This document shows, one piece after another, positions 23,603 through 51,326 of a DNA stretch of 64,000 bases. The DNA is taken from contig OX597817.1 in NCBI GenBank assembly GCA_951406725.2, forward strand, positions 6,696,001-6,760,000. Reading direction: 5' to 3'. This DNA is from Octopus vulgaris. Lineage: Eukaryota. The notes below the pieces were generated by a model, which searched no databases, had not been told where the DNA came from, and saw only the letters and a list, made by a program, of their open reading frames with translations. The first letter of the stretch is position 1; every line of letters starts with the position of its first letter. The position numbers and the translations under genes are program-made.

Positions 23603-24344
23603 TTGTATTCGAGTGTGTGTTGTGTGTCTGGGGTGTATTTATGTGTATGTGTGTGTGGGTGTGCGTGTGTGTGGAGTGTATTAGCGTGTGTATGTGTTAT
23701 GTATATGTGTGTGTAGTGTGCGTGTGTCTGTGTCTCAGTATAGTGTGTGTGTATGTGGGTGTGCGTGTGTATGGTGTGTGTGTATGCTTGTACGTACCTG
23801 TGCGTGTGTGTGTTTGTGTTTTGTGGCTGTGCGTGTGTGTATAATGTGGGTTGTGTATTTGTGTATATGTATGTTGTGTGTCTGTGTTTGCGTGTGTGTG
23901 GCGTGTGTGGTCTGTATATATACGTATTGCGCGTGCGTGGTGTATGTATGCGTGTTTGTGCCTGTTTGCGGTACGTGCGATTATATATTATCTTGATTAT
24001 TCTTTCAAAATTAAATCTTTATCAAAACAAGGCAACATTGGAACAGTTTCTGTATTACTTCACAAAGCTCGAAGAATAAAGGTGAAATCTTTGACTGAAT
24101 ATGTTATAATTAGTTTCAGTTTTATTCTTTCTCCTTTAATAGTTTCACTATGTATATGTATACATGTGTATATATACAAAGATATACACTCACACACACA
24201 AATATATATATATTTATATATCACAATCAAGGAACGGCCATAATAGGCCATTCACCCACTAGAAATAACAGCCAAAGCTTCAACCGCAAAAATAACATTA
24301 ATTCCGTAAACCAGGAGAAAATTAAAAAAAACATTTACCCTGTA

Positions 24345-24451
24345 ATTTCTTATACGATGCACCGTTTCATCTACTGTTTAATGGTAAACTAATCTGATTA
24401 AATTAAATCAAGCCAATCTTCCATAGGCCCTTAGATTCCTCAGTAAGAAAT
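24345..24451 (-). ncRNA. Type I hammerhead ribozyme, unit 1
   Basis: AUUUCUUA-CUGAGGA-AUCUA-(~60 nt)-UAGAU-GAAA-CGGUGCAUC-GUA-UAAGAAAU: 8-bp stem I, 5-bp stem II, near-palindromic stem III, GUA cleavage triplet. Confidence 0.85.
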
Positions 24452-24835
24452 AGCCAGAACGGAACAGATATTTTCACGAGGCATTTCTGTCCCTGCCTCG
24501 GCAATATCTGACCTAAAATTTTCAAACCATCGCACTCGCGCCAAATTTATCGGCAGCAAATAAATATAAGCCGCCGATTCCATTACGGAATCAACCAGAA
24601 AATTCATAATTAATCAATATAGGGTGGCAAAAAAAATTTTGTAGAATTTTTTTGCCACCAGCGGCCTAGTGGGAAAAAATTAAATAGTCTTAGACCATTT
24701 ATAAGTTCAACATCACAATCAAGGAACGGCCATAATAGGCCATTCACCCACTAGAAATAACAGCCAAAGCTTCAACCGCAAAAATAACATTAATTCCGTA
24801 AACCAGGAGAAAATTAAAAAAACATTTACCCTGTA

Positions 24836-24942
24836 ATTTCTTATACGATGCACCGTTTCATCTACTGTTTAATGGTAAACTAACCTGATTAAATTAAATC
24901 AAGCCAATCTTCCATAGGCCCTTAGATTCCTCAGTAAGAAAT
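24836..24942 (-). ncRNA. Type I hammerhead ribozyme, unit 2
   Basis: Same core and stems as 24345-24451; predicted cleavage sites are 491 nt apart. Confidence 0.85.
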
Positions 24943-25391
24943 AGCCAGAACGGAACAGATATTTTCACGAGGCATTTCTGTCCCTGCCTCGGCAATATCT
25001 GACCTAAAATTTTCAAATCATCGCACTCGCGCCAAATTTATCGGCAGCAAATAAATATAAGCCGCCGATTCCATTACGGAATCAACCAGAAAATTCATAA
25101 TTAATCAATATAGGGTGGCAAAAAAATTTTGTAGAATTTTTTTGCCACCAACAACTAGTGGGAAAAAATTAAATAGTCTTAGTCCATTTATAAGTTCATG
25201 ATGTTGAACTTATAAATGGTCTAAGACTATTTAATTTTTTCCCACTAGGCCGCTGGTGGCAAAAAAATTCTACAAAATTTTTTTTGCCACCCTATATTGA
25301 TTAATTATATATTTATATATATAAGAGATAATGGTGTCATTGAGACCCAAAGGTGTCAGGTAATGCTGAATAGGAGCTATAGACAGACCTC

Positions 25392-25517
25392 TGTAGGCTT
25401 GCTCGCTTAGCCAGCGGGGTGGTGCCATTTGAAGGCTAAAACAATTCAAAGCGCATTGCGACTAGAGATGTGTAGCAACATCTGATAGCCTGGTCGGTTA
25501 CCGTGATCACGGTGATA
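25392..25517 (+). mobile_element. 3' fragment of SINE family C, tail variant 2, ending in (TA)n
   Basis: GCTCGCTTAGCCAG...GATAGCCTGGTCGGT..CGTGATCACGGTGATA matches 51650-51771. Confidence 0.75.
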
Positions 25518-47945: not shown

Positions 47946-49004
47946 ATGTATCATTGTGCGTCGAATTTGTTTTCCTTTCAAAAACAAACAGCTACAGCGA
48001 TCTCGTTCTGCATGATAAGTAAGTCTATCAAGGTAAGAAAGGGGAAAAAACAGCAACAAAATTAACGTTAATAAGGTGGATAAAAAAAAAACAATGTAAA
48101 AGGAAACCGAATAAGGCAAAGTCTGCTTTAATTAAAATGAGCAAAATCAAGAACAAAATTCTCCCTTAGAAGAATGGGCGACCGTATGCATGCAGTTCAT
48201 AAATCCGTTAGGGCAGTAATCTCCTCTGATAAAAGATATAGAATAGAATTATCAGTTGATGACTTTTCAAAAAGACACGTTCGTTCGTCATTTCATGTGA
48301 GTAAGCCTAAAAATTTCGAAAGTAGTTAACATCAACATAACAGAAGGTATCAACAGAAATAAGACAGGAAAAATACTGAGAATCATTTGTGTTTTGTACT
48401 TCTTTGAAATTAATATGCGACTTTGCTGAAAAAAGTCTCAAAATTTCAGGAAAATCCATATTATTTATCTTTGTCATATAACACACATATCGTCGGTCAC
48501 AGAATTATTATCAACTCTCAAATATTCTGTGTGTTTTATTATTTGAACATCTCAGCAAGCGATCATTAAACTGTCTTTTATTTGTACCTATATATATATA
48601 TATATATATATATATATATATATATATATATATATATATATATATTTTTATAATATATTCCAGTTTAGATAACACACACTATATATTGGTATATATATAT
48701 ATATATATATATATATAAATGTATATATATATATATATATATATATATTAATGAGGGGAGATAAATTAATAATATTAAGCGGGCAAGAATCTGAAAAATC
48801 ATACAAAAATCTGAAAAATCAGAGAAAATTCTAATACATGTGTATATTGACAGGGCAAGACCGCTAGGTAGTCGGCCGCATGCTAGAAATATATCATCAA
48901 CGATCAAACTACAAAGAATGTTCTCTAGAGGAAAAATTCATCGAAACACCAGAAACAAATTAGGCGGGCAAGACAGATGAAAGTTTGTATAAAAAACATA
49001 ATTA

Positions 49005-49081
49005 ATCGCATACCTCGGTTTCGACTATTAACAAAATAATTACTTACATAATTCAAATGTCCGTAGTCTCGTCAGTACGAT
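49005..49081 (-). ncRNA. Type I hammerhead ribozyme, left arm
   Basis: Reverse-complement copy of 49298-49374 with the core intact. Confidence 0.8.
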
Positions 49082-49297
49082 CGTTCAAAACAAATGTAAT
49101 CCGGAAAAATAACCCCAGCCTTCTGTGCCAAAACAGAATTTACATAATTTACTGCAGTTTTTCGATTCAGGAATTTTTAGGGCGCCAGAACTAAGACATT
49201 TGACATTTATCCCTAATGTAATTGGTAAAACTAAACACGTACTGTTTTGGCACAGAAAGCTGGGGTTAGTTTTTTCAGATTACATTTGTTCTGAACG

Positions 49298-49374
49298 ATC
49301 GTACTGACGAGACTACGGACATTTGAATTATGTAAGTAATTCTTTTGTTAATAGTCGAAACCGAGGTATGCGAT
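49298..49374 (+). ncRNA. Type I hammerhead ribozyme, right arm
   Basis: AUCGUA-CUGACGA-GACUA-(36 nt)-UAGUC-GAAA-CCGAG-GUA-UGCGAU; predicted cleavage after A49368. Confidence 0.82.
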
Positions 49375-50957
49375 TAATTCTGTTTTTTATATAAATTTTC
49401 ATCTGTCTTGCCCGCCTAATTTGTTTCTGGTGTTTCGCTGAATTTTTCCTCTAGAGAACATTCTTTGTAGTTTGATCGTTGATGATCTATTTCTAGCATA
49501 CGGCCGACTACCTAGTGGTCTTGCCCTGTAAATATATACATATAAAAATTTTTTACGTAATAAAATACCTAAGGCTCTATAGATATTAGACCATTTATAG
49601 ATAGAAGGTTTTACAGCTGTTTCTAGGATATTTATCAATAATATCCCTCCGTCGGAGACGGTGTGAGAGCAAAGTTAAGTCAGTTAGTTTAGATGTGATA
49701 CAAAATAGAGAGTGAGGTGGAGGAAAGAAAATAGATACAAGATATGTATGGGTATTGAAGTTGTAAATCCATTTTATAGGTATAATGGTATATATGCAAT
49801 ATTCCAATATCCTATGGGTAAATTCCAAAAGTCCAACAGAGTTTAAAATGAGTTATGTGTTTGTATATATACATATATATACATACATAAATAAATGTAT
49901 ATATATATATATATATACATTTATTTATGTGTATATATATACACACATACATAGACACATACCCACACACACAAACATTGAACCTGAGCCATATTGAATT
50001 TTAGGACTTGCGTAAACAGCCCAGCGATATCAAATTCTAGTAAGAATATAAGGCTTACCATCTATACAGCAATATACGTACGTATACAAACACTCACATA
50101 CACATTACACACATACATGTGTTTGTGTGTGTGTGTGTGTGTGTGTGTGTGTATATATGTCATGTATATCTCCCATAAGCTAATATCGAGTTAATATATT
50201 ATAGACCATTTTGCTTAGCATATCAAAAACATTCATTCCTTACTATACTCCATTGCTTTCATTGTGAAATAGTTCAGGTCTTGAATTCCATTTTAATCGA
50301 AATACAATATTATGTTATATACTCTACGTTATTTCATATAAAATACTTAATATTCTGCGTATATCTTATTTTATTTATCAATATTAAAATTTTGTATATT
50401 ATAATCTATGAAAATGCAATTTTTGCGTCTATTGTACTTTTTATTCATTATGTAATATTTATATTATATTTGTAACCTATTGTAGTGATTTATTTATTTT
50501 TAACATTTTTTGTCTCTCCCCTAACTAGTATATGTATGTTCCATTGCGTTCTACAACAATGAGATTCGGTAAAGCTATTTATTTATACATAGTGGGGGTA
50601 TTTATTCATTTAATTTCTTTCCTTATTTCATTTTATTTATCTATTTTCGTAGGGAATTGATTTCGCGTGTTGAATTTCTATTTAAGGATACAATATATGG
50701 TGAATAAGCTTTAATTCAGTATCGAAGCAATTTCGAATAGGGTGATTATGTTCTTAATGTACACACAGAGACACAGCCACACAGATTTTTACAGATGCAC
50801 GCACTCACACGCGCACACATGCAAACACACGCACACACGCTCAAACACACACACACACACATACAAAAATACAAACTCATGAATATATTTATGGAACATC
50901 AATATTAAATATTTCAAGTGTATTCGAACGTAAAGAGGCCCTTAACTGCGGAAAAAT

Positions 50958-51326
50958 ACAAAATTTAGAGGAATGACCACTAATAGTGGACAGCCTGTAT
51001 GCTAGATATAGACGTCAAACTCGCTATTTACCACCAATAATTAATTTGTGGAGCTTTATACATGCTGGAATTCGGTCGAGCGCCCTGTATCTAGTTCTAG
51101 AAATTGTACTTCGTAAACGACAGACTAAGCTGACGATCGTGCAGATGTTTACGTATCCATATACGTAAATATTAACAAGTGAAACTAATTAGTACGTAGG
51201 TAATGTTTTTTTTTATTTTCGTATATTTCTCCTTGAGAACACATTCTTCGTGGTAAATGGCGATTTTGACGTATATATCTAGCATACAGGCTGTCCACTA
51301 TTAGTGGTCATTCCTCTAAATTTTGT
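50958..51326. mobile_element. Hairpin element (~77 bp inverted arms) with an HHR in the loop
   Basis: Arms at 50958-51034 and 51250-51326. Confidence 0.88.
51125..51199 (+). ncRNA. Type I hammerhead motif, partly decayed
   Basis: CUAAG-CUGACGA-(long imperfect stem II)-GAAA-CUAAUUA-GUA-CGUAG; stem III region ACUAAUUAGU is palindromic; mismatches in stems I and II. Confidence 0.65.

What the first reader, a model, noticed from the sequence alone, without database searches (positions are those of the whole stretch)
24220..51326. Dissimilar HHR families share one 3' terminal signature
Seen: reading inward from the ends, 24231 GGAACGGCCATAATAGGCC...CACTAGAAATA, 48853 GGCAAGACCGCTAGGTAG...ATGCTAGAAATA and 50970 GGAATGACCACTAATAG...ATGCTAGATATA. 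On the HHR-sense strand each family runs GUA site, 80-120 nt, TAT(T/A)TCTAG, ~40 nt, end, although the bodies look unrelated. Inference: a conserved cis signal for RT/endonuclease recognition or priming that unites these families into one mobilisation system.
Basis: partly seen in the sequence, partly recalled or inferred. Interest (0 to 1): 0.75.

Follow-up and report, generated by a model that had tools for sequence, protein, structure and literature searches.

The report
Shared end signal in ribozyme repeats
Eight or nine families of small, protein-less jumping repeats in this animal genome carry a hammerhead-shaped RNA followed by the same short word about 45-60 bases before one of two fixed insertion ends, likely a mark read by a Penelope-type copying enzyme, but most hammerhead repeats here lack the word and no enzyme-coding element carrying it was found.

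Summary
Six more families (D-I) share it. Three corrections: (1) the point 40 nt after the word is only the short end; a second end lies about 105 nt further, and two-armed insertions pair one short with one long end (40 of 43), the Penelope 'tail' footprint, here three times the published length; (2) the bodies are colinear ~490-565-nt units with a second shared word in the tail, so they look like distant relatives; (3) the word marks one group only: 4 of 33 hammerhead-like motifs in 770 kb of evenly spaced genome carry it in position, and many copies lie in old repeats without a hammerhead. None of the protein-coding Penelope families checked carries it at its own end. Verdict: a superfamily of non-LTR retrozymes, likely copied by a Penelope-type enzyme, with conserved cis words; recognition is inferred, the partner unknown. 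This scan found two-armed retrozymes and the short/long rule before on other DNA of this genome; I saw no note on the cross-family word.

The parts
24221..25198 (-). Family A long arm: two tandem units (period about 491), short end against TA-rich DNA at about 24221
25202..25314 (+). Family A inverted tail-only arm, ending at the long end
24353..24443 (-). Type I hammerhead, family A unit 1 (core start to predicted cut)
24844..24934 (-). Type I hammerhead, family A unit 2
24259..24267 (-). Shared word, family A unit 1
24751..24759 (-). Shared word, family A unit 2
48749..49137 (-). Family B left arm; carries the tail and ends at the long end against (TA)n (bounds approximate)
49143..49545 (+). 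Family B right arm; short end, followed by another repeat (bounds approximate)
49011..49075 (-). Type I hammerhead, family B left arm
49304..49368 (+). Type I hammerhead, family B right arm; stems covary among copies
48883..48891 (-). Shared word, family B left arm
49488..49496 (+). Shared word, family B right arm
50958..51041 (-). Family C left arm, short end
51042..51416 (+). Family C right arm with internal deletion, tail and long end against (TA)22
51130..51194 (+). Decayed type I hammerhead, family C
   Evidence: by eye; intact relatives
51002..51010 (-). Shared word, family C left arm
51274..51282 (+). Shared word, family C right arm
51784..51992 (.). Further family A insertion just outside the finding: tail-only left arm (to about 51838, minus) and 5'-truncated right arm with the word at 51946-51954 and a short end against (AT)26

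Best explanation
These are divergent, protein-less tandem ribozyme repeats (non-LTR retrozymes) that share a unit layout, a word before the short insertion end and a second word before the long one, and that were likely copied into TA microsatellites by a Penelope-type reverse transcriptase-endonuclease that likely uses those words to place its two start sites. Shown: hammerhead cores, the two words, tandem units of 489-565 nt, two ends about 105 nt apart, (TA)n flanks, short-plus-long two-armed insertions. Inferred, by analogy with Anolis Poseidon (PMC11167929): a multimeric or circular RNA is bound by the protein, (TA)n is nicked, copying starts inside the RNA at either of two sites, and the stretch between them is the optional tail. 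Inferred: the families descend from one old Penelope terminal repeat, most likely of the Hydra clade, and have drifted apart except where the enzyme (or a host factor) constrains them.
For: Ends are bimodal in four families: A +48 and +151-160, B about +59 and +170, C +50-60 and +144-151, D +44-46 and +147-154 from the word, positions inflated a little by alignment into TA. 40 of 43 distinct two-armed insertions have one short and one long end (A 9 of 9, B 15 of 16, C 10 of 11, D 6 of 7, after removing three duplicate rows by hand). Families found through the word turned out to have a hammerhead upstream (D, E, F, G, I; H only the second half of the core). Motif sampling finds the word in 9 of 9 families (16.1 bits against 10.3-11.8 in 20 shuffles) and a second, unselected word in the tail (11.9 against 9.0-9.9; 11.8 against 9.1-10.9 with one family per lineage). 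Family B stems show 4 pairs with two-sided changes, 92% of cells paired. Hydra-like coding families in this genome have the same layout of hammerhead, lineage-specific word, short end, long tail and (TA)n. Tail at one end, inverted arm and (TA)n are described Penelope features (PMC8557442 sections 6 and 11).
Against: No coding element with the word at its own end among the Neptune-like 781-aa, Hydra-like 899/833/778, 717, 980-1090 and 722-aa families and a 1310-aa GIY-YIG family; the motif model scores 13 of 14 other ends at chance level and the fourteenth weakly. Of 52 extended-word hits in 770 kb only 16 have a TA run at an expected end distance and 16 fall in an old class mostly without hammerhead or TA end. 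The word has no common predicted fold across families. D-I were picked through the word, so one search is partly circular, and the shuffles there and had fewer restarts than the real sets. Relatedness can inflate the covariation control.
Confidence: 0.6

Rival explanations
1. The word is a host-factor site (promoter or enhancer element on DNA) kept because it drives transcription of the next unit, not an RT signal.
For: Sequence is conserved while predicted structure is not; it lies about 45-60 nt upstream of where the tail, the start of the next unit, begins; it is common in old repeats without hammerhead and in an inward-facing palindrome at L325; Penelope terminal repeats carry promoter-like motifs (PMC3846280 passages). 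A likeness to MEF2/MADS sites is recalled, not tested.
Against: Its distance to the short end is nearly fixed across families, and a second word stands at a similar distance before the long end, which fits start-site placement; no transcription start data.
Confidence: 0.2
2. Plain common descent: the word is a leftover of the shared ancestor with no present role.
For: Units are colinear and B and C align outside the word.
Against: A and E share little beyond 17 nt at the word; two words persist while the rest is unalignable.
Confidence: 0.1
3. Unrelated RNAs acquired the word independently (convergence or capture of a partner's 3' end, as SINEs take LINE tails).
For: Most pairs of bodies do not align; locus L199 shows family I running into family D sequence.
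Against: Same order and spacing of five landmarks in A-E units, similar unit size, similar long-loop hammerheads with palindromic stem III.
Confidence: 0.08
4. DNA-transposon ends (Helitron-type hairpin plus terminal tetranucleotide, or MITE inverted repeats).
For: Read inward, the ends show a hairpin about 10 nt from a tetranucleotide like the Helitron 3' end (recalled), and B and C look like long inverted repeats.
Against: The element continues on the wrong side of the tetranucleotide; arms are unequal, 5'-truncated at variable points, tandem and ribozyme-bearing.
Confidence: 0.02

Closest known systems
Animal non-LTR retrozymes (Cervera and de la Pena 2020, PMC7229834, passages seen; Li, Clavereau and Pollet 2026, 10.64898/2026.07.22.740005, parts 1-3 of 5 read)
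   Same: Non-coding tandem units with one type I hammerhead each; proposed to be mobilised by Penelope-like elements.
   Different: Units of 489-565 nt against about 170-400 nt in the 2020 paper (within the 51-972 range of the 2026 preprint); no cross-family end word, two-end rule or tail is described in what I read; in Xenopus many families match a Penelope terminal repeat, here no parent was found.
Penelope 'tail' and internal RT initiation (Frangieh et al. 2024, PMC11167929, parts 1-2 of 4 and passages read; Craig et al. 2021, PMC8557442, sections 6 and 11, passages and supplement parts; Arkhipova et al. 2013, PMC3846280, passages)
   Same: Two ends downstream of the hammerhead, optional extension on one arm, head-to-head inverted arms, AT-rich targets.
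   Different: Tail about 105 nt rather than 30-40; carried by protein-less units; flanked by words shared across families.
Hydra-clade Penelope-like elements (PMC8557442 section 11)
   Same: Canonical hammerhead near the end, (TA)n targeting; Hydra-like coding families of this genome have long tails (about 135 nt in the 899-aa group) and their own conserved words before the short end.
   Different: Their words differ, the short end follows within about 6-15 nt rather than about 40, and the motif model does not score them above chance.
SINE-LINE pairs sharing a 3' end (established knowledge; PMC5786205 abstract start seen)
   Same: Several non-autonomous families keep one short recognition region.
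   Different: No tRNA head, tandem units, internal start sites, partner not identified.

Membership tests
Type I hammerhead ribozyme | Conserved core words joined by helices I, II, III with helix I open | tested here: met
   window C copy decayed; family H has only half the core
Type I hammerhead ribozyme | Helices kept by compensatory change | tested here: met
   family B only, 15 copies: 4 of 14 pairs change on both sides, 0 of 500 shuffles reach the score, with the relatedness caveat
Type I hammerhead ribozyme | Match to an Rfam hammerhead model | tested here: inconclusive
   no hammerhead family among 107 matches at E up to 1 in the window; loop II is 37-60 nt, longer than usual
Type I hammerhead ribozyme | Self-cleavage | not testable with these tools
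   needs transcription assay; 8 of 9 predicted Xenopus dimers did not cleave in the 2026 preprint
Non-LTR retrozyme | Tandem units, each with a hammerhead | tested here: met
   A, B, C, D, E tandem units of 489, 546, 529, 505, 565 nt
Non-LTR retrozyme | No protein-coding frame | tested here: met
   no frame of 100 aa or more lies inside the window elements; no translated match of A, B, C, E units to coding loci in hand
Non-LTR retrozyme | Circular monomer RNA in cells | not testable with these tools
   only contigs were served
Penelope-like element insertion | Optional tail at one end and head-to-head inverted, 5'-truncated arm | tested here: met
   40 of 43 two-armed insertions; tail length differs from published 30-40 nt
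Penelope-like element insertion | (TA)n target (Hydra, Naiad, Neptune types) | tested here: met
   microsatellite-flanked ends: A 38 of 41, B 39 of 49, C 29 of 45, D 33 of 39, overlapping loci not removed
Penelope-like element insertion | Sequence homology to the terminal repeat of a coding element | tested here: not met
   none in the coding families checked; Naiad and other unsampled families of this genome not searched
Helitron | Hairpin and terminal tetranucleotide at the element's outer 3' end | tested here: not met
   the element continues beyond the tetranucleotide and the hairpin lies toward the flank; feature recalled

The most novel reading that the evidence does not exclude
A long-lived superfamily of ribozyme RNAs that has no coding parent left in the genome, keeps its own two-word address for reverse transcription, and borrows a Penelope enzyme whose own ends look different; the same word, in very roughly 10^5 genomic copies including an older hammerhead-less repeat, would be a sequence code that fixes where a Penelope enzyme starts copying inside an RNA.
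Probability: 0.2. Interest if true: 0.72.

Novelty: new variant of a known kind. Interest (0 to 1): 0.45.

Why it matters
How Penelope-type enzymes choose their internal start sites, and which RNAs they copy in trans, is open; the only in vitro study maps binding to a 150-nt window of one element. A set of divergent natural templates that keep two short words at fixed distances before two start sites gives exact positions to mutate. It would also give a sequence marker for sorting non-autonomous ribozyme repeats by partner. If the word proves to be a host-factor site, about 10^5 copies were spread by these repeats.

Tried and rejected
Rfam scan: only low-complexity miRNA matches, no hammerhead. 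Bare 9-letter word: not enriched over shuffles. Pfam GIY-YIG search returned Neptune-like families without the word (not every end was reached in 1.5-kb flanks). Four protein searches for other Penelope lineages gave active families without the word; word hits near them were separate nested insertions. A Pfam accession that I recalled is not in the library. Pfam names only the Neptune-like protein clearly; Hydra-like proteins have no Pfam hit, their label rests on motifs in PMC8557442 section 11 and by-eye likeness to its supplement. The supplement of PMC8557442 (file cut when stored; line breaks can hide hits) has 4 places of the word, all inside coding regions, and the two octopus Naiad ends I read lack it. 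Likeness of the word to Hydra-like lineage words looked good by eye but failed the motif-model test. Expression: no RNA holder listed on record; contigs of four coded runs from four organism labels hold family A but show no ends or level. Look-up of earlier findings by the family A sequence returned nothing. The old hammerhead-less class was not aligned and no between-family conservation profile was made, so its nature and the relative rate of change of the word stay open. Literature searches showed no paper on such a shared word; bioRxiv supplements and most subscription papers, Repbase and Dfam were not visible.
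Full report
Setting. The window is G000:C4:6696001-6760000 of a 2.8-Gb, microsatellite-rich animal genome (octopus-like by the likeness of its Penelope proteins to those in the supplement of PMC8557442, by eye).

Observation. A structure-aware scan finds type I hammerhead cores in family A (24443-24353 and 24934-24844, minus) and family B (49304-49368 plus, 49075-49011 minus), with the word 84-85 and 119 nt after the predicted cut. Family C has a decayed core at 51130-51194 (by eye), with intact relatives elsewhere at 116 nt. Rfam reports no hammerhead, probably because loop II is long. 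In 15 family B copies the three helices hold 92% standard pairs with 4 pairs changed on both sides; relatedness can inflate that control. A fourth insertion, of family A, lies at 51784-51992.

Is it more than chance? The bare word is not enriched in 400 kb of evenly spaced genome (18 against 12-21 in shuffles), the extended word is (29 against 0-3), and in 770 kb a 16-letter form gives 52 hits against 2-8, very roughly 10^5 genome-wide by extrapolation. Of 33 hammerhead-like motifs found by a relaxed scan of those 770 kb (some are likely false), 5 have the word within 200 nt, 4 of them at 84-102 nt and from three families, against 2.4% of random windows. Of the 52 hits, 16 have a TA run at an expected end distance (background 12%) and 16 match an old, decayed class that mostly has neither hammerhead nor TA end (loose criteria).

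Anatomy from genomic copies. Searches with A, B, C and a family D found through the word returned 30 loci each, the best-scoring of 2175-3606 first-look candidates (not copy numbers, and biased toward long young copies). A copies are 98-100% alike, B 90-95%, C and D about 80-90%. All four have two 3' ends against microsatellite: about 45-60 nt and about 145-170 nt after the word. In two-armed, head-to-head insertions one arm ends short and the other long in 40 of 43 distinct cases (three duplicate rows removed by hand; exceptions L098, L125, L209). The window follows the rule: A short at 24221 and long at 25314; B long at about 48749 and short at about 49545; C short at 50958 and long at about 51416.

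The families are probably relatives. Tandem units of A-E measure 489, 546, 529, 505 and 565 nt and show the same order: word, predicted hairpin, short end, tail with a second word, long end, a GC-rich island, hammerhead (the island by eye). B and C align over 60 nt at the long end (E 3e-4), A and E over 17 nt at the word only. Further families F, G, I have hammerhead plus word, H half a core plus word. Motif sampling of the 150-170 nt after the cut recovers the word in 9 of 9 families (16.1 bits, shuffles 10.3-11.8; D-I were chosen through the word, so partly circular). A second word, not used for selection, is recovered in the tail at +95 to +111 in 7 of 9 families (11.9 bits, shuffles 9.0-9.9). 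Folding puts the first word in different structures in different families, so sequence rather than shape is what is kept.

Search for the partner. The genome holds many intact-looking Penelope-like families: a Neptune-like 781-aa frame (RT and GIY-YIG), Hydra-like frames of 899/833/778, 717, 980-1090 and 722 aa (label from the motifs in PMC8557442 section 11) and a 1310-aa GIY-YIG family of undetermined clade. None carries the word at its own end; for the 722-aa family one true end was seen, for the 980-1090 group three of four. The Hydra-like 899 group has the same overall layout with a tail of about 135 nt and its own word, but the motif model scores 13 of 14 other ends at chance and the Neptune-like end weakly (p 0.017 of 14 tests). 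Naiad families of this genome were not searched.

Mechanism. In Anolis Poseidon, reverse transcription starts at two internal sites of the RNA about 85 nt or more past the hammerhead cut, and the stretch between them is the genomic tail (PMC11167929). The two ends here fit that model with a longer tail. I infer that a Penelope-type protein, most likely Hydra-clade, binds multimeric or circular unit RNA, nicks (TA)n and starts copying about 40 nt past the first word or about 45 nt past the second, one start per arm. The words would position those starts (0.6). The main rival is a host-factor site on DNA (0.2), favoured by the word's presence in hammerhead-less repeats; leftover ancestry (0.1) and convergence (0.08) follow.

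Relation to what is known. Tandem hammerhead repeats are non-LTR retrozymes (PMC7229834 passages) and have been argued to derive from Penelope terminal repeats (bioRxiv 2026.07.22.740005, parts 1-3); hammerheads in Penelope repeats are from PMC4209133 (part 1 of 4); one-sided tails and inverted arms from PMC8557442 and PMC3846280. I found no description of a word shared across retrozyme families or of 100-nt tails in six searches. Earlier notes of this scan describe 476-493-nt two-armed retrozymes and a short/long rule on other DNA of this genome; they are unchecked notes, and my counts were made on my own loci.

Verdict. Real feature, known class, with a useful new handle: two conserved words and a long tail defining one retrozyme superfamily whose partner is unknown. 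Interest 0.45.

Noticed in passing
L361, L362, L367, L368 (3' untranslated region of the Hydra-like 722-aa family): All 4 copies examined carry the same two-armed family E insertion in a TA-rich stretch of their 3' UTR; the host element's own end, with a different hammerhead, lies about 2 kb further. A retrozyme piece riding inside a coding element.
   Followed up: partly
L033, L036, L057, L063, L346, L352, L355 and others: An old, strongly decayed repeat class carries the extended word but mostly no hammerhead or TA end; about a third of word hits in the sample.
   Followed up: partly
L325:5720-5830: Two copies of the extended word face each other around a hairpin, the opposite arrangement to the Penelope-type inversions.
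   Followed up: no
L067:3700-4600: A 172-bp tandem array with the extended word in each unit and no hammerhead detected.
   Followed up: no
L137, L142, L176, L178; L281, L288: Coding families with variant hammerhead cores: the U3-A8 type in the Neptune-like 781-aa family, a changed second core base in the Hydra-like 717-aa family.
   Followed up: no
L241-L260, L364-L366: Hydra-like coding families each have their own conserved word before the short end and long tails (about 135 nt in the 899-aa group, about 90 nt in one copy of the 980-1090 group), against 30-40 nt in print.
   Followed up: partly
L199:900-1250: Family I sequence runs directly into family D sequence, a possible template switch between families.
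   Followed up: no
window 49532-49603 and 52253-52328: A different repeat begins at the short end of the family B right arm, in place of (TA)n; also seen in L262 and L096.
   Followed up: no
L321 (G000:C24:41776000-41783000): Fragments of several different Penelope lineages nested within 7 kb.
   Followed up: partly
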